64,000 bases of DNA, taken from positions 197,071-261,070 of the forward strand of contig CAWCWJ010000001.1 of assembly GCA_963799275.1 (NCBI GenBank). The letters are read 5' to 3'. This DNA comes from an uncultured Alphaproteobacteria bacterium. GTDB taxonomy: Bacteria; Pseudomonadota; Alphaproteobacteria; Micavibrionales; Micavibrionaceae. Shown one piece after another: positions 5,125 through 15,942 of this stretch (position 1 is the stretch's first letter; each line of letters begins with the position of its first letter). Both the position numbers and the translations under genes were made by a program. A model generated the notes under the pieces. That model did not search any database, was not told where the DNA came from, and saw nothing but the letters and a program-made list of their open reading frames with translations.

Positions 5125-5370
5125 ATTTATAATTTTCTTATTAAATTAAAAGCTTTTTCCTTAAAAACCCCTGTGATAGAATAATAAACAGCTTTATTCA
5201 CAGCTTTACCCCCACATAAAGTTTTGATTGGCGTTTGTATTCTTTGTTATTTTAACAATAATTTCACTTTGCAATGCGCCAATTCTGGCGACATATCAGC
5301 ATAACTCATTATTAACCTTTCACATGTTATTATGTGGGAGGGATATTACGTTTATAAAAGGGGTACGTTC

Positions 5371-8300
5371 ATGACGCACTGGACACAAAACGTTTTCAGC
5401 ATCTTAAACGCTAGAAAAAAACATCACCATTATCAGCCCCTTGTTAAGGAATCGGGGAATGTTTTCTTGATGCTTTTTGGCGCGGTTGCCATGGTGGGTG
5501 TCTTAGGCGCGTCGACCATGACCGTCCTTCGTGGCCCCGTCAAAACCATGTCCGAAGTCACAAAACGCACCTTGGCCGAAAATAATATGATGTCATCGGC
5601 ACGGATTGCTGTGGTTACAGCATCACAAGATGCAACAACATATGATTGTGATACAGATGGTGTTGTTGAACCTGATGCATTTGGTACGGCTATTACTGGT
5701 TTTACAGGGGGGGGAACAATACCCGCCACTATTGGTGTCAGCCGCCAAGACCCATGGGGAAACGAGTATGGATATTGCGTATGGGATCATGGTCCATCAA
5801 TAGATGCGGGGGGTTGTACAGGGGATAATCGCCTTGCAGGAGATAATAGCACAACATCAACTTCATATTCTGTTGCCTTGATATCTGCAGGACCCAATGG
5901 TCAATATGAAGCTGGGTGTTTACCATATGCAGGTAGTCCAGCCAGCCAAATTTCTAGGGGTGGCGATGATATTGTTCATACTTTATCCTATGATGATGCC
6001 GCCAATATCGCAGGTGGATTATGGAGCGAGGAAGGGTCAACGGCAGCTCGAATTTCACGCGATTTAATTGTCGATGATGGTGCATCCACCCCCATTGAAA
6101 CTTTAAATTTTACAGCATCTTCGGGTGATTTTAGCGTTTCTGGCTCTGGTCAATTTCCAGTAATTAATACGGATAATATTCAACCAATTTCCGCGGCAAG
6201 CTTACTTATTAGCGCCCCAACAATTATATCTGGCGATTTAACTGCATCTGGCAATATCTCAGGCGTAAATTTATTGGCGACAGGAACGCTTGATGTTACA
6301 GGCGCTTCATCCCTTGGTATATTAGGCGCAGGCGCGACAACAGTAACAACTTTGAACAGTTCAGGGTTGGCACAGTTAGATTCTTTAAACGTGTTTAATA
6401 ATGCTGATATAGATGGCAATTTGAATGTGGATGGCACACTCACCCTTGCCGATTTAGATGTACCAGGCAACACATCATTAGGGACAACGACTGCACAAGA
6501 AATTGCCCTAAATGGAACAATAACCACCGATATTTTAATAAGTGCAGGTAACTTAACCCTTACATCAGGCAATGCAACAATTGGTGGAACATTGGGTGCA
6601 GGGGCGACAATATTAGATTCCTTAACCGTAACAAATAATTTAACCGTAAATGGAAGTTTAGGCGCTGCATTAAACGCAGGTGGTTTTGGTATTACAAACT
6701 TACTTGACCCTTCCGCCCTTCAAGATGCCGCAACAAAAAGTTATGTTGATACTGAAATTTCTAGTGTCATGTCTGGCGGTGTAACGGAAGATGACCCATT
6801 TGTTGAAGATGTTCTGAACACAGGTGAATTATGTATCGGAAAGACAGGTAACATCGTTGGCTGTGATGTTAGTGCAGTCACTGCCTTTGAAACCGATCCC
6901 ACAATATCAACTTTGGCAAATGATGGAGATGTATGTGTTGTTAGTGGTACACAAATTATTTGTAATGTACCACAAGGAACAATTAGCGCTGGCGCAACTG
7001 GCCTTTGGTCGGATAACACGAATAGTATAAATTATCTAAGCCAATATATTATAAAATCTGGCCAAAACTCAACCACTGCTGGCCTTGATGGTGATGGCAC
7101 ACGCATGTTTTACGACACTAACGAAGGCGCACTTCGTGGTGGTCGTATTTTTGGTGGAAACACTGCTTGGCAGAACACAAATATTGGTAGATATTCATTA
7201 GCATGGGGTTACAATCCTTTAGCCAGCGGTGATAGTGCTACAGCATTAGGGAACAATACGACAGCTAGTGGTAATAATTCTACAGCTATGGGGTCAAATA
7301 CAACAGCTAGTGGTATTAGTTCTACAGCTTTGGGAGGTTTTGCAACTGCAAGTGGCAATAATTCCGTAGCTTTGGGACGAGCTACAAATGCTAGTGGAAC
7401 TGATTCTATCGCTATGGGTGGTGGTACATTTGCTAGTGGTAATAATTCTACAGCTATAGGAAGTCAATCAACTGCAAGTGGCACTCATTCTGTAGTTATA
7501 GGTCATCAATCAACTGCAAGTGGGTTCAGCTCAACTAGTTTTGGATATAGAGTAATAGCAGGATCAGGAGTACCACAACCTTTTGGTGGTAATTCGGGCG
7601 TTGGTAATTATTCTGTCGCTTTTGGATTAGGTAACTCTTCATTTACATTACCTCCTCGTGTTTCTGGTAATGAAAGTTTTGGAATTTTCTTTGGTGACCA
7701 ATCAGGGGAAGACATCACCGCAACGAATGTTCTGGCGTTAGAAGGAGGCTCACTCCTCCTCTCTAACGATTCAGGAACCGCGTGTGCGGCGGATAAACAA
7801 GGAGCCTTACGCCTTAACGCAACCGCAGACGGCCTTGAAATGTGCGATGGTGCAGGAACATGGACATCCACCTTCACAGGTGGCGGGGCCAGCGGTGGTG
7901 TGATTGCATTAAACGACCTAACAGATGTTTTATTTGACACAACAACTGATTATGATGGGGACACGTTGGATGATGATGATAATTTGTTTATTGGAATTAC
8001 CGCCGCCGCGTTAACAACAGGTAATCAAAATATAGTTATTGGCGCAACATCTGGTAATAATATTACAGAAGCCAATGGCGGTGTTATTATTGGTGCAGAT
8101 GCGGGTCGCTTACTTACTACGGGTAATGATAATACATTTATAGGGCAAGAAGCAGGTGAATTAACCACAACAGGGGAATTTAATACTTTTATTGGAAATG
8201 ACGCAGGTAAAAATAACAGTACAGGTTCATACAATGATTTTTTTGGTAAAAGCTCAGGTAGAGATAATACAACAGGAATACAAAACACCTTTTTAGGTAT

Positions 8301-9609
8301 CAGTAGTGGTACAAGTAATACGACAGGTAATCGTAATGTTTATATAGGTAATAGAGCAGGCCGAAATCTAACAGCGGGAGTTGATAATGTTATTGTTGGT
8401 CAATCTGCTGGGGAACAAACAACCAATGCTAGTCAATCTGTTTTTATCGGTCACCGATCAGGGATTAGTGCGGGTTCAAGAAACGCATTTGTTGGTTGGT
8501 ATTCAGGTAGAAATATAAGCGGCACGGGAAATATTGCAATGGGTGAAAATTCCGCAGGCAATGTTTCTAACGGGTCTGATAATGTTTTTCTTGGGTCTAA
8601 TGTTGCAGCATCATTATCATCTGGTGATAAAAATATTTACATTGGTAGTGATGTTGATTCATCTGCTGCAACGGTATCCGAAGAATTAAATATTGGGGAT
8701 CTAATTAAGGGTGATATCGGTACAACATCAACCGACCCCCGCATCGGCGCGCCAAAATATTGCGATGAAAATCTAGCCAATTGCTTTATCGCTACGGATG
8801 TTTCTAGCAATAATGCTGGCGGCGCAGACACGCAAATTCAATTTAACAATATTGGCGTATTGGATGGCGATGCGGCCTTCATATGGGATTCAACCAATGA
8901 TATTTTGGATGTGAATGGATCAATCAATGCACAAACACGCATAACCTTGGGCCAAACCACGGGCGCCGCCGCACCAACATACCCTAGCCCCGCAGATTTA
9001 TGGAGTAACGGTACTGGCGATGATATTTATTATAACACTGGCACCACACCACAAGTTGGTATCGGGACAACAACACCTGCTGAAGCCCTTGACGTTGTTG
9101 GGAACATTCAATATTCAGGAATTTTGGTTGATGCGTCCGACCGCCGATTGAAAGAGAATATCACCCCCCTTGATAACAAGACAATTTTATCGCGGATTGA
9201 ACAAATCGATACCTATTCATTCACCATGATTGGGGATGACAAAAAACAGATGGAGTTTGGTGTTATTGCCCAAGAATTGGAAAAAATATTCCCCGAATTG
9301 GTAACCGTTGCGAATGACGTAATGAAAACCCGACATGTTAATTATGTTGGCTTTATCGCGCCCTTAATTGAATCAACCAAGCAATTAAAAATAGAAAATG
9401 ATACTTTAAAGAACGAACTTTCCACCCTAAAAAACAATCAAGAACAAATCTTACAAGATATGGCAAAAATAAAATCTATAATGGGTATAAATTCAGCAAA
9501 GGGCGCAAAATTTAATTCTTATTTATTATTACTCTCATTAATAATTGGTGGTGGGATAATGGTTGCCTTTTCACGTCAACAAAAAGTTATTAGCGGTAAG
9601 GAAGTTTAA
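5371..9609 (+). CDS. giant surface fibre protein: pseudopilin-like N-terminus, YadA-like head repeats, tail-fibre-type G-x-x-N-x-F-I-G repeats, C-terminal peptidase S74 intramolecular chaperone domain
   Basis: Start chosen at the ATG at 5371, preceded by AAGGGG; the tracked ORF begins at 5332. N-terminal hydrophobic helix NVFLMLFGAVAMVGVLGAS. GspG-like motifs DPWGNEYGY, SAGPNG and GGDDI. Hep_Hag-like NSTAMGSNTTASG repeats. A phage-fibre motif ITNLLDPSALQDAATKSYVD. An S74 motif SDRRLKENITPL ... EFGVIAQELEKIFPELV. A coiled coil and a C-terminal TM helix. Confidence 0.75.
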   Translation: MTHWTQNVFSILNARKKHHHYQPLVKESGNVFLMLFGAVAMVGVLGASTMTVLRGPVKTMSEVTKRTLAENNMMSSARIAVVTASQDATTYDCDTDGVVEPDAFGTAITGFTGGGTIPATIGVSRQDPWGNEYGYCVWDHGPSIDAGGCTGDNRLAGDNSTTSTSYSVALISAGPNGQYEAGCLPYAGSPASQISRGGDDIVHTLSYDDAANIAGGLWSEEGSTAARISRDLIVDDGASTPIETLNFTASSGDFSVSGSGQFPVINTDNIQPISAASLLISAPTIISGDLTASGNISGVNLLATGTLDVTGASSLGILGAGATTVTTLNSSGLAQLDSLNVFNNADIDGNLNVDGTLTLADLDVPGNTSLGTTTAQEIALNGTITTDILISAGNLTLTSGNATIGGTLGAGATILDSLTVTNNLTVNGSLGAALNAGGFGITNLLDPSALQDAATKSYVDTEISSVMSGGVTEDDPFVEDVLNTGELCIGKTGNIVGCDVSAVTAFETDPTISTLANDGDVCVVSGTQIICNVPQGTISAGATGLWSDNTNSINYLSQYIIKSGQNSTTAGLDGDGTRMFYDTNEGALRGGRIFGGNTAWQNTNIGRYSLAWGYNPLASGDSATALGNNTTASGNNSTAMGSNTTASGISSTALGGFATASGNNSVALGRATNASGTDSIAMGGGTFASGNNSTAIGSQSTASGTHSVVIGHQSTASGFSSTSFGYRVIAGSGVPQPFGGNSGVGNYSVAFGLGNSSFTLPPRVSGNESFGIFFGDQSGEDITATNVLALEGGSLLLSNDSGTACAADKQGALRLNATADGLEMCDGAGTWTSTFTGGGASGGVIALNDLTDVLFDTTTDYDGDTLDDDDNLFIGITAAALTTGNQNIVIGATSGNNITEANGGVIIGADAGRLLTTGNDNTFIGQEAGELTTTGEFNTFIGNDAGKNNSTGSYNDFFGKSSGRDNTTGIQNTFLGISSGTSNTTGNRNVYIGNRAGRNLTAGVDNVIVGQSAGEQTTNASQSVFIGHRSGISAGSRNAFVGWYSGRNISGTGNIAMGENSAGNVSNGSDNVFLGSNVAASLSSGDKNIYIGSDVDSSAATVSEELNIGDLIKGDIGTTSTDPRIGAPKYCDENLANCFIATDVSSNNAGGADTQIQFNNIGVLDGDAAFIWDSTNDILDVNGSINAQTRITLGQTTGAAAPTYPSPADLWSNGTGDDIYYNTGTTPQVGIGTTTPAEALDVVGNIQYSGILVDASDRRLKENITPLDNKTILSRIEQIDTYSFTMIGDDKKQMEFGVIAQELEKIFPELVTVANDVMKTRHVNYVGFIAPLIESTKQLKIENDTLKNELSTLKNNQEQILQDMAKIKSIMGINSAKGAKFNSYLLLLSLIIGGGIMVAFSRQQKVISGKEV

Positions 9610-9614
9610 TTTAA

Positions 9615-11273
9615 ATGAGATACCGCCTTATCCTTTATTTTTTAACGATTTCTTTTGTGATGATAATATCATCTAACGCGCATGCCTGCATCAACCCTGC
9701 GGGATCAGCGGGTGAGTCAATTTACAATAAAGATTACAGCGTAATGCAATATTGCGACGGCACCAATTGGGTCGGGATGAGCGATGTTGAAACAGGGCTA
9801 GTCGGTCATTGGCGACTAGATGAAACCAGCGGCACAACTGTAGTTGACAGTTCAAAAAATTCTTATACAGGTACAATGATAAATGGTTTAGATGCCGCCA
9901 ACAGCAATATAACTGGCCCTATTAATACAGCCCTTAGTTTTGATGGAATAGATGATCAAATTTCTGTATTTGATGGATGGTTACATTTTGAAAAAAATTT
10001 TACTGTTAGTTTTTGGATTTACATTAAAGATCCAGGAGCCAGAACAATGGATATATTGGGCACCTATACGGGATCAGGCGGAAATAATTTACATTTTGGT
10101 GTAAATGGGCACTTCGAAAGAATTTATTTAAGTATGCATGGTGGTTTTGGGATACAACATCAAGATACAAACGAGCTTTATAATCAATGGCATCATTTTG
10201 TATTTACCCGAAATGTAAATGGAAATTTAGAAATTTTTAAAAATGGTGTGTCTGTATCAAATAATAGTGCGGGCCCTATCGGTTCATTCATATTAAGCAA
10301 CAATGATAACTTAAATTTCGGGAAGGGCGGCACAGGCAATGTAATATTTAATGGTGGTTTAGATGAAATTCGTATCTATGATCGTATCCTCTCCCCCGCT
10401 GAAATTTCCGCCTTGTATGAATCAGGCCGCGACCGTGGATTGGTTGGCCATTATAAAATGGATGAAACCTCAGGATTGACAGTATTTGACAGTACGGTTT
10501 ATGGTAATAATGGAACAATATTAGGCGGTTCAACAGGTATTTCTTATAGCAATCCATCCCCTACTGGAACAGCAATTGATTTTCCTAATACACCTTCTGA
10601 TAATAGTGGTCGTCGTGTAGAGATACCAAATATTTTCCCTACTGGTCCTTCCTCTCCCTTTACAATTTCAAGTTGGATTAAAAGAGAAGGTTCCTCGCAA
10701 AGCCTTTTTACTAATGGAACTCAATCTACAAAACAATTTTTGATTTTCAGAAATATTAGAATTAGAGATCTTTCTGGTTGGTATGATAGATCCTCAAGTG
10801 CAACTAAAATAAATGATCAGTGGGATCATATTTCTATTGTTTATGATGGGGCTAATATTAAAATTTATAATAGTGGTTTGTTATCTGATAGTCGTTCTCG
10901 AACATTAAATTTAACTGAAACAACATTTCTATTTGGTAGTACAGGCGGTGCATTTGGAGAAGGTGGTGCTGATTTTGATGATGTACGACTATATAATCGT
11001 GCACTTTCTGATGATGAAATCCAATCAATTTATCAACAACGTTTCAAAAGCTGTACTTCCCCCGATGGGCACGAAGGGGACACAATTTATAATAATACCA
11101 ATAATGTAATGCAGTATTGTAATGGAACATTTTGGGCGGCCATGGGCGCAGCGGGCGATGGCGGTGCAGGGTGCACTGGCCCCATCGGCGCAGCAGGCGA
11201 CCTAATTTATAATGACAGCTTTAATGTAATGCAATATTGCGAAGGCGACACATGGATGGCAATTGGAAAGTAA
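9615..11273 (+). CDS. secreted protein with two LamG/concanavalin-A-like lectin domains flanked by Cys-bracketed modules
   Basis: Signal peptide ending in NAHA. Two Laminin_G_3-type domains (GLVGHWRLDETSG ... LDEIRIYDRILSPAEISALY and GLVGHYKMDETSG ... FDDVRLYNRALSDDEIQSIY). Three copies of C-x2-P-x-G-x2-G-x2-IYN-x4-VMQYC-x-G-T-x-W. Confidence 0.8.
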   Translation: MRYRLILYFLTISFVMIISSNAHACINPAGSAGESIYNKDYSVMQYCDGTNWVGMSDVETGLVGHWRLDETSGTTVVDSSKNSYTGTMINGLDAANSNITGPINTALSFDGIDDQISVFDGWLHFEKNFTVSFWIYIKDPGARTMDILGTYTGSGGNNLHFGVNGHFERIYLSMHGGFGIQHQDTNELYNQWHHFVFTRNVNGNLEIFKNGVSVSNNSAGPIGSFILSNNDNLNFGKGGTGNVIFNGGLDEIRIYDRILSPAEISALYESGRDRGLVGHYKMDETSGLTVFDSTVYGNNGTILGGSTGISYSNPSPTGTAIDFPNTPSDNSGRRVEIPNIFPTGPSSPFTISSWIKREGSSQSLFTNGTQSTKQFLIFRNIRIRDLSGWYDRSSSATKINDQWDHISIVYDGANIKIYNSGLLSDSRSRTLNLTETTFLFGSTGGAFGEGGADFDDVRLYNRALSDDEIQSIYQQRFKSCTSPDGHEGDTIYNNTNNVMQYCNGTFWAAMGAAGDGGAGCTGPIGAAGDLIYNDSFNVMQYCEGDTWMAIGK

Positions 11274-11279
11274 TAAAAT

Positions 11280-13763
11280 ATGTTAAAAAACAAAAATAAC
11301 TTTAAAAGGTCTTTTACGATGTCAAAAAAAATTCAAATATTTTTATTTGCTTTCACTCTCATGTTTGGTGCGCAAAACGCACACGCCCAATGTACCAGCC
11401 CCGCATCAAATGAAGGTGGCATTGATTACAGCACAACCATCAATGACCTAATCGTTTGCGACGGCACAAATTGGCAAACCGCAGGGTACACTGGCGGTGG
11501 AAGTGGACTATTCACCGACAACACAACCCACATTACTCGCTCAGACTTTCATATCATAAATAGTGGCCAAACATCAACCACTGCTGCCCTTGATGGTGAT
11601 GGCACACGCATGTTTTATGATCCCAATAAAGGCGCATTGAGAGGGGGGTCTATAACTAGTGGTAATGATAGATGGCAAAATTCTAATATTGGTTCAGAGT
11701 CGTTCGCTTGGGGTTGGAATGTAGAGGCTAGTGGTAATAGTTCTACAGCTATAGGTCGTTCTGTGATTGCAACCGGCTTTAACTCGATGGCTTTTGGCAA
11801 CGATATACAAGTTGGAACTGGTACGGCACAAACGGTAGATACAAATGCTGGCGAGGGAAATTATTCTATTGCCTATGGTTTGGGTGATGCGTCAACATCT
11901 ACTAAACCCCGAGTAACTGGTAATGAAACAGCTGCGTTTTTCTTTGGTGATCAACAAGGTGAAAATATCACTGCAACAAATGTTCTGGCGTTAGAAGGTG
12001 GCTCACTCCTTCTCTCCAACGATTCAGGAACCGCCTGTGCAGCGAATAAACAAGGAGCCTTACGCCTTAACACAACCGCAGACGGCCTTGAAATGTGTGA
12101 TGGCGCAGGAACTTGGACATCCACCTTCACAGGTGGCGGTGCTGGCGGTGGTGCAATCGCCATTAATGATTTAACGGATGCCTATACCGATTACACCACA
12201 GATTTTAACCTGTTTATGGGTCAAAATGCTGGTAGTTCAATTGCAGCAGGCGCGGCAAATAACATTGCTATTGGTATAAATTCTGCTTCTAATCTTACTA
12301 CAGGAGGTGATAATATTGCCATAGGTAATAATGCAATGGCATCTACCACAACAGGTGGTGGTAATACAATTATTGGTCATGATTCCATGACAACTGGAAA
12401 TGGTTTTGCAAATACTGCACTCGGGGTGCGTACATTAAAATTATCAACAGGGGCTTTAAACACTGCTATTGGTGATTCAGCGTTGGAATCTTCTACAACT
12501 GCAAGTGGAAATACCGCTCTGGGCTTTCACGCAGCAAGATTAATAGATAGTGGCGCAAATGTGTCGATTGGTGTGCGAACTATGTATAAAATGACCACGG
12601 GATCAGATAATGTAGCGATTGGTGCTTATAATTTTTCAAATGCCATAACAGGTTCCGATAATACTATACTGGGAAGTCGATCTGGAAACAATCTTACATC
12701 TGGGGATGGAAATATCCTCATTGGCAAAGAAGTTCAAACGTCTACAGCTACATCTAATGAAGAATTAAATATCGGTGATTTAATCAAAGGGGATATCGGT
12801 ACAACATCAACCGACCCCCGCATCGGCGCGCCAAAATATTGTGATGAAAATCTTGCCAATTGCTTTATCGCTACGGATGTTTCGGGTGGTATCGGCAGCC
12901 GTATCCAAGATGCGGATAATGATACATATATTGATGTTGATGGTACAGGCGATGGATCAGAAAATACCATTAGAATGGGTTTTGGTGGAACAGATAGACT
13001 TGTATTAAATGGCCCTAATGCAACTTTAAGTGCACGATTATTTTTGCAAACAACAAATGGTTTTAGTGCTGTTTTTAAAGCAACATCACCAGGTTCAGGA
13101 CCATTTTTGTTATTTCAACATAGTGGAATAGATGTAGAATCAGGCATACTTGGTTTCCCGCGGGAGGCAGGTGCAGGCGATAGTGCATTTGCAGTATCAA
13201 CTGGTAATAATGGTGTTCTGGCTGAACATTTACGCGTTACATCCGATGGAGACGTTGGCATTGGGACACTAACCCCAACAGAAAGTCTGCATGTTAATGG
13301 CAATGTACTTGCTGATGCTTATTTTCATACCTCTGATAAAAATTTGAAGAATGATATAGAGCTTGTAAAAGGTCTTGATCTTATTAATAAATTGCGCGGT
13401 GTTACCTTTACTTTTAAAGAGGATAATCGTGAAAGTGCAGGAATTATCGCGCAAGATGTTCAAAAAGTACTTCCCCGCGCGGTCAAGGAAAATACAGGCG
13501 GGTTCCTAACCGTTGATTATAACCAGCTTTTTGCACCGATTATTGAAGCGATTAAAGATCTTCATAAAATGGTGATGGATTTAACAAAAAATATACAATC
13601 AATCTTTGATAAGGTAAGCGCATTAGAAAGTGAAAATGCTAATTTGAAAAATGAAGTTCATATATTAAAAAAACAAAATCAGGATATTATGAAACGTCTT
13701 GATGCGCTCGAAACATTACCGCAAACTTCATCTTCTGACATCACCGCGCAAGGCGCTACATAA
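11280..13763 (+). CDS. surface fibre protein 2 with C-terminal peptidase S74 intramolecular chaperone domain
   Basis: Sec signal (FAFTLMFGAQNAHA), a Cys module, head-type repeats and an S74 domain (SDKNLKNDIELV ... AGIIAQDVQKVLPRAV ... VDYNQLFAPIIEAIKDL), followed by a coiled coil. Several blocks are near-identical to 5371-9609. The alternative start is the ATG at 11319. Confidence 0.75.
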   Translation: MLKNKNNFKRSFTMSKKIQIFLFAFTLMFGAQNAHAQCTSPASNEGGIDYSTTINDLIVCDGTNWQTAGYTGGGSGLFTDNTTHITRSDFHIINSGQTSTTAALDGDGTRMFYDPNKGALRGGSITSGNDRWQNSNIGSESFAWGWNVEASGNSSTAIGRSVIATGFNSMAFGNDIQVGTGTAQTVDTNAGEGNYSIAYGLGDASTSTKPRVTGNETAAFFFGDQQGENITATNVLALEGGSLLLSNDSGTACAANKQGALRLNTTADGLEMCDGAGTWTSTFTGGGAGGGAIAINDLTDAYTDYTTDFNLFMGQNAGSSIAAGAANNIAIGINSASNLTTGGDNIAIGNNAMASTTTGGGNTIIGHDSMTTGNGFANTALGVRTLKLSTGALNTAIGDSALESSTTASGNTALGFHAARLIDSGANVSIGVRTMYKMTTGSDNVAIGAYNFSNAITGSDNTILGSRSGNNLTSGDGNILIGKEVQTSTATSNEELNIGDLIKGDIGTTSTDPRIGAPKYCDENLANCFIATDVSGGIGSRIQDADNDTYIDVDGTGDGSENTIRMGFGGTDRLVLNGPNATLSARLFLQTTNGFSAVFKATSPGSGPFLLFQHSGIDVESGILGFPREAGAGDSAFAVSTGNNGVLAEHLRVTSDGDVGIGTLTPTESLHVNGNVLADAYFHTSDKNLKNDIELVKGLDLINKLRGVTFTFKEDNRESAGIIAQDVQKVLPRAVKENTGGFLTVDYNQLFAPIIEAIKDLHKMVMDLTKNIQSIFDKVSALESENANLKNEVHILKKQNQDIMKRLDALETLPQTSSSDITAQGAT

Positions 13764-13782: not shown

Positions 13783-15942
13783 ATGAAATATTTTCTTCCT
13801 ATTTTATTAGTGGCGATTGTAAGCGGATCTTCTATTGCTTTGACAGCGGATAGTTATCGCGTGCCATCCAAAGGCGGACAAGTTTATATTGAGGAGCATT
13901 CGGTTTGTAAACAAGTCACCAACAATTCGCCCGATAATGATCTCTTCGTCCCCACTCGTACCCCCGCCGAATGGCATACAGGCGGCGAGTCTTTCGTCGA
14001 AAACACGCCCTCTATTGCAAATATAATAGATAATTGTAATTCTGGGACATTAAATCTAGAGGGGGTGACGAGAAATTATCTTGATGGGGCAAGCTCTGTC
14101 ACGGTGTCGGGTAATTTTGCCTATGTCGCAAGCCTTGGTACCGATAGCTTGACCATCATCGATATCTCTAACCCCGCCGCCCCCACACAAACAGGCACCA
14201 TCTCTAATGCCAATCTTGATGGTGCTTTCTCTGTCACGGTGTCGGGTAATTATGCCTATGTCGCAAGCCTTAATGCCAATAGCTTGACCATCATCAATAT
14301 CTCTAACCCCGCCGCCCCCACACAAACAGGCACCATCTCTAATGCCAATCTTGATGGGGCAAGATCTGTCACGGTGTCGGGTAATTATGCCTATGTCGCG
14401 AGCAATATTGCCGATAGCTTGACCATCATCGATATTTCTAACCCCGCCGCCCCCACACAAACAGGCACCATCTCTAATGCCAATCTTGATGGGGCAAGCT
14501 CTGTCATGGTGTCGGGTAATTTTGCCTATGTTGCAAGCTCTACTGCCGATAGCTTGACCATCATCGATATCTCTAACCCCGCCACCCCCATACAAACAGG
14601 CACCATCTCTAATGCCAATCTTGATGCGGCTTACTCTGTCACGGTGTCAGGTAATTATGCCTATGTCACAAGCTTTAATGCCGATAGCTTGACTATCATC
14701 GATATCTCTAACCCCGCCGCCCCCACACAAACAGGCACCATCTCTAATGCCAATCTTGATGGTGCTTTCTCTGTCACGGTGTCGGGTAATTATGCCTATG
14801 TCGCAAGCCTTGGTGCCGATAGCTTGACCATCATCGACATATTTAACCCCGCCGCCCCCACACAAACAGGCACCATTTCTAATGCCAATCTTAATGCGCC
14901 TTACTCTGTCACGGTGTCGGGTAATTATGCCTATGTCGCAAGCTCTACTGCCGATAGCTTGACCATCATCGATATCTCTAACCCCGCCGCCCCCACACAA
15001 ACAGGCACCATCTCTAATGTCAATCTTGATGGGGCTTACTCTGTCACGGTGTCGGGTAATTATGCCTATGTCGCAAGCCTTGTTGCCGATAGCTTGACCA
15101 TCATCGATATCTCAAACCCCGCCGCCCCCACACAAACAGGCACCATCTCTAATACCAATCTTAATGGGGCAAGATCTGTCACGGTGTCGGGTAATTTTGC
15201 CTATGTCGCAAGCGTTTATGCCGATAGCTTGACCATCATCGATATCTCTAACCCCTCCGCCCCCACACAAACAGGCACCATTTCTAATGCCAATCTTAAT
15301 GGGGCAAGCTCTGTCACGGTGTCGGGTAATTTTGCCTATGTTGCAAGCTCTACTGCCGATAGCTTGACCATCATCGATATCTCTAACCCTGCCGCCCCCA
15401 CACAAACAGGCACCATCTCTAATGCCAATTTTGATGGGGCAAGCTCTGTCACGGTGTCGGGTAATTATGCCTATGTCGCAAGCTTTAATGCCAATAGCTT
15501 GACCATCATCGATATCTCTAACCCCGCCGCCCCCACACAAACAGGCACCATCTCTAATGCCAATCTTAATGGGGCAAGATCTGTCACGGTGTCGGGTAAT
15601 TTTGCCTATGTCGCAAGCGTTAATGCCGATAGCTTGACCATCATCGATATCTCTAACCCCGCCGCCCCCATACAAACAGGCACCATCTCTAATGCCAATC
15701 TTAATGGGGCTTTCTCTGTCACGGTGTCGGGTAATTATGCCTATGTCGCAAGCTTTCTTGCCAATAGCTTGACCATCATCGATATCTCTAACCCCGCCGC
15801 CCCCACACAAACAGGCACCATCTCTAATGCCAATCTTAGTAATGCGCGCTCTGTCACGGTGTCGGGTAATTTTGCCTATGTCGCGAGCTCTACTGCCGAT
15901 AGCTTGACCATAATTAATCTCTCCTGCACGTTCGGTTGCTAA
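13783..15942 (+). CDS. secreted LVIVD-repeat beta-propeller protein (14 repeats)
   Basis: Signal peptide, then 14 copies of a 45-aa unit (SVTVSGNYAYVAS..ADSLTIIDISNPAAPTQTGTISNANLDGA) that matches the LVIVD repeat pattern. Confidence 0.85.
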   Translation: MKYFLPILLVAIVSGSSIALTADSYRVPSKGGQVYIEEHSVCKQVTNNSPDNDLFVPTRTPAEWHTGGESFVENTPSIANIIDNCNSGTLNLEGVTRNYLDGASSVTVSGNFAYVASLGTDSLTIIDISNPAAPTQTGTISNANLDGAFSVTVSGNYAYVASLNANSLTIINISNPAAPTQTGTISNANLDGARSVTVSGNYAYVASNIADSLTIIDISNPAAPTQTGTISNANLDGASSVMVSGNFAYVASSTADSLTIIDISNPATPIQTGTISNANLDAAYSVTVSGNYAYVTSFNADSLTIIDISNPAAPTQTGTISNANLDGAFSVTVSGNYAYVASLGADSLTIIDIFNPAAPTQTGTISNANLNAPYSVTVSGNYAYVASSTADSLTIIDISNPAAPTQTGTISNVNLDGAYSVTVSGNYAYVASLVADSLTIIDISNPAAPTQTGTISNTNLNGARSVTVSGNFAYVASVYADSLTIIDISNPSAPTQTGTISNANLNGASSVTVSGNFAYVASSTADSLTIIDISNPAAPTQTGTISNANFDGASSVTVSGNYAYVASFNANSLTIIDISNPAAPTQTGTISNANLNGARSVTVSGNFAYVASVNADSLTIIDISNPAAPIQTGTISNANLNGAFSVTVSGNYAYVASFLANSLTIIDISNPAAPTQTGTISNANLSNARSVTVSGNFAYVASSTADSLTIINLSCTFGC
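14080..15929 (+). repeat. tandem array, about 13.7 x 135 bp, in-frame coding repeats
   Basis: The string acggtgtcgggtaat recurs with an exact 135-nt period (14101, 14236, ...). Units are near-identical at the DNA level. Confidence 0.95.

What the first reader, a model, noticed from the sequence alone, without database searches (positions are those of the whole stretch)
11052..11486. Unassigned Cys-bracketed ~30-aa module repeated four times at the termini of secreted island proteins
The pattern C-x2-P-x-G-x2-G-x2-(I/D)Y-N/S-x4-(V/L)-(M/I)-(Q/V)-(Y)-C-(D/N/E)-G-T-x-W occurs four times. It occurs once directly after the signal-peptide cleavage site of the LamG protein (CINPAGSAGESIYNKDYSVMQYCDGTNW, 9687-9779). 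It occurs twice in tandem at that protein's C-terminus (CTSPDGHEGDTIYNNTNNVMQYCNGTFW and CTGPIGAAGDLIYNDSFNVMQYCEGDTW, 11052-11270). It occurs once directly after the signal peptide of fibre 2 (CTSPASNEGGIDYSTTINDLIVCDGTNW, 11391-11486). Both signal peptides end in NAHA. A disulfide-bracketed mini-domain placed at mature termini of different proteins in one operon looks like a shared docking or recognition module. I cannot assign it to a named family.
Basis: seen in the sequence. Interest (0 to 1): 0.6.

Follow-up and report, generated by a model that had tools for sequence, protein, structure and literature searches.

The report
Three-copy disulfide module on fibre proteins
A small two-cysteine module seen four times in this fibre gene island belongs to a large unannotated family that occurs three per protein (or once per chain in trimeric fibres), so three copies probably build one small three-fold "plug" domain that mounts binding domains and phage-like fibres on a pilus-borne fibre system.

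Summary
There are four clear copies of a 28-35-residue C...C-x-G-x2-W module: three in the LamG protein and one at the mature N-terminus of fibre 2. They are the only significant copies in the genome. Two degenerate internal copies lie in the fibres.

No local Pfam or NCBIfam model covers the module, yet a profile finds 3,931 protein clusters. Of 164 proteins inspected, 158 carry exactly three modules, in every split (1+2, 3 tandem, 2+1, 1+1+1). The inserted payloads are LamG, Lcl_C, RCC1, LVIVD and FG-GAP domains.

Most single-module proteins examined are fibres with the S74 chaperone, which are presumably homotrimers. AlphaFold2 models a tandem triple as one compact unit (pLDDT 88.9, pTM 0.78). 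It has no significant structural match in PDB or BFVD.

Resemblance to the phage Mtd N-terminal beta-prism (Pfam Mtd_N) is weak and below threshold, but the register is the same.

In related genomes, S74 fibres carry either a pilin-like head or this module. The gene just after a fibre gene usually starts with the module.

Best reading: a (pseudo)trimeric adaptor domain. A docking role is inferred, not shown.

The scan noted the same mini-domain earlier in Sinorhizobium meliloti (e1-3179408).

The parts
5332..9609 (+). Fibre 1: pilin-like N-terminal head, YadA_head repeats, S74 chaperone (aa 1269-1325 = 9136-9306). This is the upstream fibre of the island and has no full module.
   Evidence: Pfam YadA_head E 3.9e-23 and Peptidase_S74 E 3.6e-16. 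The head motif ESGNVFLMLFGAVAMVGVLGA is shared with the upstream fibres of related islands.
7783..7863 (+). Degenerate internal module-like copy in fibre 1 (CAADKQGALRLNATADGLEMCDGAGTW).
   Evidence: Seen in the sequence. The twin copy in fibre 2 gave only a sub-threshold HMM alignment (0.8 bits).
9615..11273 (+). LamG protein, 552 aa: signal peptide (aa 1-24), module 1, two Laminin_G_3 domains, module 2, linker, module 3.
   Evidence: ORF. Laminin_G_3 E 2.4e-38 with 2 stretches. Three module hits of 71-77 bits.
9687..9770 (+). Module copy 1 (aa 25-52), starting at the first residue after the predicted AHA cleavage site.
11052..11135 (+). Module copy 2 (aa 480-507).
11136..11171 (+). Conserved Gly-rich linker AAMGAAGDGGAG between modules 2 and 3 (family consensus MGPxGxGGAG-C).
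   Evidence: Nearly invariant G516, G517 and G519 in alignment A1. Pairs are listed.
11172..11255 (+). Module copy 3 (aa 520-547). The protein ends 5 residues later (11270).
11280..13763 (+). Fibre 2: Sec signal peptide (probable start M14 at 11319, ...AQNAHA), one N-terminal module, fibre shaft, S74 chaperone (aa 685-736 = 13332-13487), coiled coil.
   Evidence: Peptidase_S74 E 2.9e-14. PHROG tail-fibre families down to 1.8e-27. Module hit of 68.5 bits.
11391..11474 (+). Module copy 4 (fibre 2 aa 38-65), one residue after the predicted cleavage site.
12036..12116 (+). Degenerate internal module-like copy in fibre 2 (CAANKQGALRLNTTADGLEMCDGAGTW).
   Evidence: (weak domain 260-280).

Best explanation
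The module is a roughly 30-residue three-stranded beta-meander stapled by one disulfide: Cys1 in the N-terminal arm bonds to Cys2 at the end of strand 2. It has an invariant Trp. The module works in threes. Three copies pack around a true or pseudo three-fold axis into one small prism-like domain. Monomeric proteins such as the LamG protein carry all three in one chain, and the binding payload is inserted at a junction between modules. Here two LamG domains sit between module 1 and modules 2-3, so the N- and C-termini of the protein come together. Homotrimeric S74-matured fibres such as fibre 2 carry one copy per chain at the mature N-terminus and build the same domain from three chains. In this lineage the module is the alternative to the pilin-like head found on fibre 1. 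Most likely it is the proximal adaptor or plug that mounts interchangeable tip proteins and secondary fibres on the pilin-headed fibre, or on a common surface receptor. [quoted passage not shown] Shown here: the family, the rule of three, the compact AF2 model, both-or-none Cys, and the synteny. Inferred: the three-fold geometry, the disulfide, monomer versus trimer state, and the docking partner.
For: 1) Rule of three. The module profile finds 3,931 clusters. Among the 164 proteins held, 158 have exactly three modules, although proteins with more copies would outrank them by score. All splits occur: 1+2 in 90, 1+1+1 in 25, tandem in 22, 2+1 in 21. A 149-aa protein (P0044) is only a signal peptide plus three modules. 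2) AF2 models a tandem triple (alignment A3) with mean pLDDT 88.9 and pTM 0.78 over 121 residues. That is not expected if three 35-residue units on Gly linkers were independent. Each module is modelled as three strands. 3) Most single-module proteins examined are fibres. Window fibre 2, L010_9264, L011_6884, L012_6286, L016_11250, L030 and L034 have one full N-terminal module plus S74. None of 73 three-module proteins has S74. 4) Cys occur both or none: 69 modules have both and 17 have neither, against 6 ambiguous. In the top set 462 of 474 have both, and Trp is present in 472 of 474. The LamG protein's six Cys are all in modules. 5) Payloads are LamG 44, Lcl_C 17, RCC1 7, LVIVD 6, FG-GAP 4, plus a C-type lectin and a SUEL lectin. 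From general structural knowledge, these folds have adjacent N- and C-termini, as an inserted domain needs. 6) Linkage to fibres. In 41 related genomes the module is in 22, S74 is in 24, and both are in 19. In 13 genomes the nearest module starts 450-660 bp after an S74 domain, which means the next gene begins with the module. The order pilin-headed fibre, then three-module proteins, then (where one is present) a module-headed fibre recurs in the window, G012, G019, G011, G008 and Micavibrio aeruginosavorus. 7) Weak similarity to Mtd_N in the same register. Pfam Mtd_N hits a module of P0007 at 22.6 bits and 4 of 38 modules. hhalign aligns module positions 8-29 with Mtd_N positions 17-38 at E 0.0066. 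Mtd_N corresponds to residues 4-51 of Mtd, PDB 1YU0. That beta-prism is thought to attach Mtd to the tail fibre (PMC10743442). PHROG hits place the module near the N-terminus of phage proteins, including a tail-fibre family.
Against: I could not inspect model coordinates, so three-fold packing is inferred from pTM only, and two of the five AF2 models were much less confident (pLDDT 64-68). The full-length LamG model is poor (pLDDT 61, pTM 0.54) and does not show whether the N- and C-terminal modules touch. Foldseek finds no significant structural relative in PDB (best E 0.53) or BFVD (best E 0.03). The Mtd_N similarity is below Pfam's threshold and hhalign probability is only 5.8%; the Mtd_N model finds nothing in this genome. 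The oligomeric state of any of these proteins is untested, and Lcl_C payloads are trimeric in Legionella Lcl (my knowledge). In distant alphaproteobacteria (L028, L029), and at one Micavibrio locus (L002), three-module proteins lie with no fibre gene nearby, so fibre docking cannot be the whole story. No partner surface has been identified.
Confidence: 0.5

Rival explanations
1. The three-module domain is itself a small pseudo-trimeric beta-prism lectin. It would be analogous to the 40-residue trimeric fungal lectin PhoSL and its three-repeat bacterial relative SL2-1. It would bind a glycan on the producer's own envelope (anchoring) or on prey or host cells (avidity), rather than a protein partner.
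For: PhoSL is a three-fold beta-prism of about 40-residue units. Each unit has a Cys pair and a core Trp triad, and the native gene and Streptomyces SL2-1 encode three repeats in one chain (PMC5958098). The module likewise has two invariant Cys and one invariant Trp and comes in threes. Conserved Tyr/Phe-Asn and Gln are typical sugar-contacting residues. All payloads are lectin-like or propeller binding domains. The database's precomputed Pfam hits list PF26696 'PTL_trimer' faintly on three module proteins; I only guess that this is the PhoSL family.
Against: hhalign of the module profile against PhoSL gives probability 2.4%. The module profile finds no PhoSL chain in the PDB sequences even at E 10. 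Foldseek of the triple model against PDB, which holds 6FX1 and 5XZK, gives nothing with E below 0.5. The Cys spacing differs (7 versus 22 residues). The tight adjacency to fibre genes is not explained by this reading.
Confidence: 0.2
2. The domain is a sorting or export tag. It would be a folded signal recognised in the periplasm by the type II/type IV-pilus-like machinery that also assembles the pilin-headed fibre, and it would take varied cargo across the outer membrane.
For: One conserved domain is fused to many unrelated secreted cargos, always behind a Sec signal peptide. It co-occurs with pilin-headed fibres. There are about 11 such proteins at several loci in Micavibrio.
Against: Sorting tags normally have a fixed terminal position, whereas here the modules are split in every possible way. 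There are few carriers per genome, often a single one. Cys-less copies of the same motif are repeated structural elements inside fibre shafts, which points to a structural role.
Confidence: 0.12
3. The modules are independent, self-folding disulfide caps or spacers at domain boundaries. They would have no co-assembly and no specific partner.
For: Each module is predicted as a self-contained three-strand meander. Modules sit at domain borders.
Against: Independent caps would not be limited to exactly three per protein over 158 of 164 proteins and four architectures. They also would not give pTM 0.78 for a Gly-linked triple.
Confidence: 0.08

Closest known systems
Pfam PF18454 Mtd_N: N-terminal beta-prism of the Bordetella phage BPP-1 major tropism determinant (PDB 1YU0, residues 4-51)
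   Same: It is a short beta-meander at the N-terminus of a trimeric receptor-binding protein. The core motif has the same spacing: G-[ED]-h-x-[FY]-[DN]-T-x3-x-h-x-h-x-D-G-x-T. The Mtd prism is thought to dock the trimer on a tail fibre (PMC10743442). Sub-threshold HMM hits recur.
   Different: The module adds an N-terminal arm with Cys1, has Cys2 before D/N-G, and has an invariant Trp where Mtd_N has GG. Scores stay below Pfam's cut-off, and there is no hit in this genome. The module occurs as three copies in one chain with domains inserted between them, which is not known for Mtd_N.
PhoSL / SL2-1 core-fucose lectins (PDB 6FX1, 5XZK); possibly Pfam PF26696 PTL_trimer
   Same: Units of about 40 residues with a Cys pair and a key Trp form a three-fold beta-prism. 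The units occur either as three chains or as three repeats in one chain (PMC5958098).
   Different: No sequence or fold similarity was detectable. The Cys spacing differs. PhoSL-type proteins carry no inserted payload domains and have no link to fibres.
Bdellovibrio bacteriovorus MAT (mosaic adhesive trimer) fibres
   Same: They are chromosomal, phage-tail-fibre-like trimeric adhesins of a bacterial predator. They have a conserved N-terminal anchoring domain of unknown partner, variable binding tips, and S74-type chaperones on some members (PMC10769870). Named homologues of the window proteins come from the predator Micavibrio aeruginosavorus.
   Different: I did not compare MAT N-terminal domains with the module. 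The system here adds pilin-headed fibres and monomeric three-module proteins, which that paper does not describe.
Earlier scan finding e1-3179408 (Sinorhizobium meliloti disulfide-stapled phage-fibre-like mini-domain)
   Same: Judging from that note's description, it is the same family and the same closest-known call (Mtd_N). It reports the same lack of a Pfam/NCBIfam model and the same observation that domains sit inside it. I did not compare its sequences with the module.
   Different: It lies in a different genome and context. The rule of three, the one-per-chain use in S74 fibres, the compact AF2 triple and the fibre synteny were worked out here.

Membership tests
Pfam PF18454 Mtd_N | HMM score at or above the gathering threshold (26.3 bits) | tested here: not met
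   No match in the own genome at E<=10. The best module hit is 22.6 bits in P0007. Four of 38 modules hit, best E 0.0011.
Pfam PF18454 Mtd_N | Core sequence motif and register (GE-h-x-F/Y-D/N-T ... h-x-h-x-DG-x-T) | tested here: inconclusive
   hhalign puts module positions 8-29 on Mtd_N positions 17-38 with identical spacing, but E is 0.0066 and probability only 5.8%. Sequences are shown.
Pfam PF18454 Mtd_N | N-terminal position in a homotrimeric receptor-binding or fibre protein | tested here: met
   Fibre 2 and six other S74 fibres carry one module at the mature N-terminus. This is not met by the three-module proteins.
Pfam PF18454 Mtd_N | Trimeric beta-prism fold | tested here: inconclusive
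   The AF2 triple is compact (pTM 0.78). Foldseek gives no significant match to PDB, Mtd included, but it is chain-based and a pseudo-trimer cannot match a single chain. No coordinates were available.
PhoSL/SL2-1 lectin family (PTL_trimer?) | Sequence similarity to the 40-residue PhoSL unit | tested here: not met
   hhalign probability 2.4%. There is no PDB sequence hit at E<=10. Only 'faint' precomputed PF26696 hits exist.
PhoSL/SL2-1 lectin family (PTL_trimer?) | Three units forming one three-fold prism | tested here: inconclusive
   The count of three is met and the AF2 model is compact, but the geometry could not be inspected.
PhoSL/SL2-1 lectin family (PTL_trimer?) | Core-fucose or other glycan binding | not testable with these tools
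   This needs glycan arrays.
Peptidase_S74 (endosialidase-type intramolecular chaperone) fibres, for fibre 2 | C-terminal S74 domain above the Pfam threshold | tested here: met
   53.5 bits against a cut-off of 22, aa 685-736.
Laminin_G_3 / ConA-like lectin, for the three-module protein's payload | Pfam PF13385 above threshold | tested here: met
   132 bits with two stretches. The Foldseek top hits are jelly-roll lectin-like domains.

The most novel reading that the evidence does not exclude
The three-module domain is a single-chain mimic of a homotrimeric fibre head. It lets monomeric lectin or propeller domains plug into the same socket as true trimeric phage-type fibres. Micavibrio-like bacteria would then decorate a pilus-mounted (pilin-headed) fibre with exchangeable tips, giving a plug-and-play adhesin system that is built from a disulfide-stapled derivative of a phage tail-fibre motif and has no structural relative yet in the PDB.
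Probability: 0.3. Interest if true: 0.8.

Novelty: new variant of a known kind. Interest (0 to 1): 0.62.

Why it matters
A family of about 3,900 protein clusters has no usable annotation. Recognising that its roughly 30-residue unit works in threes explains the architecture of hundreds of secreted LamG, propeller and lectin proteins. It also gives a rule for gene annotation: three modules indicate a monomeric adhesin, and one module plus S74 indicates a trimeric fibre. If the adaptor reading is right, it would show how bacteria related to the predator Micavibrio mount exchangeable binding tips on pilus-borne, phage-derived fibres. That question is open in the better-studied Bdellovibrio MAT fibres, whose N-terminal anchor partner is unknown. 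The compact, disulfide-stapled pseudo-trimer that tolerates whole-domain insertions could also serve as a protein-engineering scaffold.

Tried and rejected
1) The local Pfam and NCBIfam copies have no model on the module. PF26696 is not in the local Pfam library. 2) The PDB sequence search with the module profile gave only chance hits. 3) The PhoSL relationship was rejected on sequence and on fold; it is kept only as an analogy. 4) Foldseek of the full LamG model returned only generic jelly-roll matches, including the lectin-like subdomain of clostridial neurotoxin binding domains. This says nothing about the module or about toxicity. 5) tblastn of the stand-alone three-module protein against 50,697 phage records found no match. 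6) search for related loci with the triple alignment failed, and with the window pair it found one locus. 7) A second homologous-protein search on the fibre 2 head found only the near-identical relative. 8) A literature search for motif strings and for PF26696 gave 0 papers. 9) I tested whether modules 1, 2 and 3 keep position-specific identity across architectures. Only module 1 does, and this is probably helped by the cleavage-site columns, so I did not use it as evidence. 10) A lipoprotein reading of the N-terminal Cys was rejected. The sites are AxA signal-peptidase-I type (AHA|C, AHA|QC, ADC in relatives), and the Cys is equally invariant in internal and C-terminal copies.
Full report
**Observation**

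The window holds a four-gene island:
- fibre 1, 5332-9609;
- a LamG protein, 9615-11273;
- fibre 2, 11280-13763;
- an LVIVD propeller protein, 13783-15942.

The reported motif is present four times in frame. Three copies are in the LamG protein at aa 25-52, 480-507 and 520-547. One copy is in fibre 2 at aa 38-65.

An HMM built from the four copies was run over the six-frame translation of the whole 1.61-Mb genome. It recovers only these four at significance (domain i-E-values 8e-22 to 4.5e-19; the next hit has full-sequence E 2.1).

The copies share 32-61% protein identity and 49-64% DNA identity, so they are not recent duplicates. The LamG protein has six cysteines, and all six are in the modules. 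Both signal peptides end in NAHA, and the module starts 0 or 1 residue after the predicted cleavage site.

A degenerate, differently spaced copy (CAA[DN]KQGALRLN.TADGLEMCDGAGTW) lies inside each fibre, at 7783-7863 and 12036-12116.

**No named family, but a large one**

- The local Pfam and NCBIfam copies annotate LamG, YadA_head, Peptidase_S74 and LVIVD in the island proteins. Neither places a model on the module.
- A word-seeded search with the C-terminal pair found 20 proteins. They include several from Micavibrio aeruginosavorus and from alphaproteobacterial MAGs, and they carry different central domains.
- A 38-sequence module profile (A2) was scored against 1.84 billion representative proteins. 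It found 3,931 clusters at E<=1e-3, 1,801 at E<=1e-10 and 358 at E<=1e-30.
- In whole genomes the module was found in 22 of 41 genomes of the window's own order. In an even sample of the class it was found in 10 of 301 genomes. In a phylum sample it was found in 1 of 400 other genomes.
- The M. aeruginosavorus genome has 34 module matches in about 11 proteins.

**Rule of three**

I rescanned the 164 proteins in hand. Of these, 158 carry exactly three modules. The list is ranked by summed score, so proteins with four or more copies would rank at the top. Apart from two giant proteins (P0051 with 6 copies, P0027 with 8 by my rescan or 11 by HMMER) none exist in the list.

The three copies are split in every possible way:

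| Arrangement | Proteins |
|---|---|
| 1+2 (as in the window) | 90 |
| 1+1+1 | 25 |
| Three in tandem | 22 |
| 2+1 | 21 |

(Counts.)

P0044 (149 aa) is only a signal peptide plus three modules.

Among 73 three-module proteins the inserted domains are Laminin_G_3 (44), Lcl_C/DUF1566 (17), RCC1 propellers (7), LVIVD (6) and FG-GAP (4), plus a C-type lectin and a SUEL lectin. None has an S74 domain. From general structural knowledge, these folds have neighbouring N- and C-termini, as an inserted domain requires.

**One per chain in fibres**

Most proteins with a single full module that I examined are fibres. Window fibre 2 and six others carry a Sec signal peptide, one N-terminal module and a C-terminal S74 chaperone:
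- L010_9264, L011_6884, L012_6286 and L016_11250, from relatives;
- L030 and L034, from distant alphaproteobacteria.

From established knowledge of endosialidase and T5 pb1 fibres, the S74 chaperone marks homotrimeric phage-type fibres. The remaining single-module proteins are more varied. P0019/P0020 and L014 carry tail-fibre-like motifs, L031 carries the same internal copy as the window fibres, and L033 is unassigned.

Giant fibre shafts also contain Cys-less copies of the core, PATGLxAYNTxTxxYxFYDGTxW.

Cysteines are present both or none. Sixty-nine modules have both and 17 have neither. Six are ambiguous cases in which the N-terminal arm is not aligned or is differently spaced. In the top set 462 of 474 modules have both Cys, and Trp is present in 472 of 474. 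This supports an intramodule C1-C2 disulfide and a structural role for the Trp.

**Structure**

The full-length LamG model is weak (pLDDT 61, pTM 0.54). It does show each module as a three-strand meander.

A tandem triple (alignment A3, first row P0004 235-355) is modelled with mean pLDDT 88.9 and pTM 0.78. Three 35-residue units joined by Gly-rich linkers would not give such a pTM unless the model fixes their mutual arrangement. I therefore read the triple as one compact domain.

There are two caveats.

Foldseek finds nothing significant in PDB (best E 0.53) or in BFVD (best E 0.03). The weak viral hits are mostly tail-fibre, collagen-like, tail-collar and Mtd_N-annotated proteins.

**Relation to known motifs**

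- *Mtd_N (Pfam PF18454).* It gives recurrent sub-threshold hits: 22.6 bits on a P0007 module, and 4 of 38 modules with best E 1e-3. It finds nothing in this genome. True Mtd_N sequences recovered from alphaproteobacterial genomes align to the module in one register with identical spacing of G-[ED]...[FY]-[DN]-T...D-G (hhalign E 0.0066, probability 5.8%).
- *What Mtd_N is.* It corresponds to residues 4-51 of Mtd, PDB 1YU0. That beta-prism is thought to attach the Mtd trimer to the phage tail fibre (PMC10743442).
- *PHROGs.* They place the module near the N-terminus of several phage families of about 300-400 residues and unknown function, and of one tail-fibre family.
- *PhoSL.* This fungal lectin (and its three-repeat bacterial homologue SL2-1) is a close analogy. 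Units of about 40 residues, each with a Cys pair and a Trp triad, build a three-fold prism either as a trimer or as three repeats in one chain (PMC5958098). There is no detectable sequence or fold relationship.
- *PF26696.* The database's precomputed 'faint' PF26696 (PTL_trimer) hits could not be examined, because the model is not in the local library.

**System context**

S74 fibres in this lineage have one of two heads. One is a pilin-like head with the ESGNVFLMLFGAV motif. It is found on window fibre 1, L010_862, Micavibrio L001, L013, L018, L020, L035 and L036. The other is a signal peptide plus module.

A common order recurs: a pilin-headed fibre, then three-module proteins, then (in the window, G012, G019 and G011) a module-headed fibre. 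In G011 the module-headed fibre precedes the three-module protein. In G008 and Micavibrio no module-headed fibre was found in the fetched stretch.

Across 41 related genomes the module and S74 co-occur: both in 19, module only in 3, S74 only in 5, neither in 14. The Fisher p is 1e-4, but the genomes are kin and not independent. In 13 genomes the nearest module begins 450-660 bp after the start of an S74 domain, which means the next gene opens with the module.

The linkage is not universal. One Micavibrio locus (L002) and two distant genomes have three-module proteins with no fibre gene nearby.

**Interpretation**

The best-supported reading is a disulfide-stapled beta-meander that assembles in threes into a small prism-like domain. 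The assembly is intrachain in monomeric adhesins and interchain in trimeric fibres. The domain would act as the non-pilin head or adaptor of a pilus-associated fibre system.

- Docking on the pilin-headed fibre is inferred from synteny and from the Mtd analogy. I give the whole statement 0.5: about 0.7 for the three-in-one domain and about 0.4 for docking.
- The rivals are a PhoSL-like lectin prism (0.2), an export tag (0.12) and independent caps (0.08).

An earlier report of this scan on S. meliloti (e1-3179408) reached the Mtd_N-like mini-domain reading on other DNA. The rule of three, the one-per-chain use in fibres, the AF2 triple and the fibre synteny are added here.

Noticed in passing
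7783-7863 and 12036-12116: A degenerate, differently spaced copy of the module (CAA[DN]KQGALRLN.TADGLEMCDGAGTW) sits in both fibres. The same element occurs in a 343-aa protein of a distant alphaproteobacterium (L031_9358).
   Followed up: partly
L011 6884-13969 and L035 959-6274 (G011, same genus): Giant fibre shafts repeat a Cys-less version of the motif, ...RGFLAPRVSDP..AIAAPATGLMAYNTxTxxYxFYDGTxW..., every 200-450 residues. The only Pfam signal is a weak hit to the end of DUF2793 (E 0.002-0.017).
   Followed up: partly
13 related genomes, e.g. window 9136 to 9687: The distance from the start of an S74 chaperone domain to the first module of the next gene is 450-660 bp in each of the 13 genomes. 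This is a tightly conserved gene junction.
   Followed up: yes
P0051 (3902 aa) and P0027 (2878 aa): These are the only proteins in the top list with more than three modules. P0051 has 6 copies at a regular period of about 437 residues, and P0027 has 8-11. They may be trimeric giant fibres, or chains that hold two or more prisms.
   Followed up: no
L036 2482-4425 (G008): A three-module protein downstream of a pilin-headed fibre has a first module that lacks both cysteines (STGDIHYNETPEAIEYYNGTQW). So the staple is dispensable as a pair.
   Followed up: partly
13783-15942: The island's LVIVD propeller protein has a signal peptide but no module. In relatives, LVIVD propellers are payloads inside module-bearing proteins (P0002, P0017 and L003_9111). 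Its N-terminal roughly 90 residues, with Cys42 and Cys85, are unassigned.
   Followed up: no
9615-11273: The LamG region gives a sub-threshold hit to NCBIfam NF052521 'TafC family fimbrial protein' (44.7 bits against a cut-off of 410). Its Foldseek matches are to the lectin-like jelly-roll subdomain of clostridial neurotoxin binding domains. This is generic fold similarity only.
   Followed up: no
L002 4139-12727 (Micavibrio aeruginosavorus CP195303): Four consecutive genes each encode a three-module protein, with RCC1, FG-GAP, FG-GAP+Lcl_C and FG-GAP payloads. No fibre gene lies within 10 kb.
   Followed up: partly
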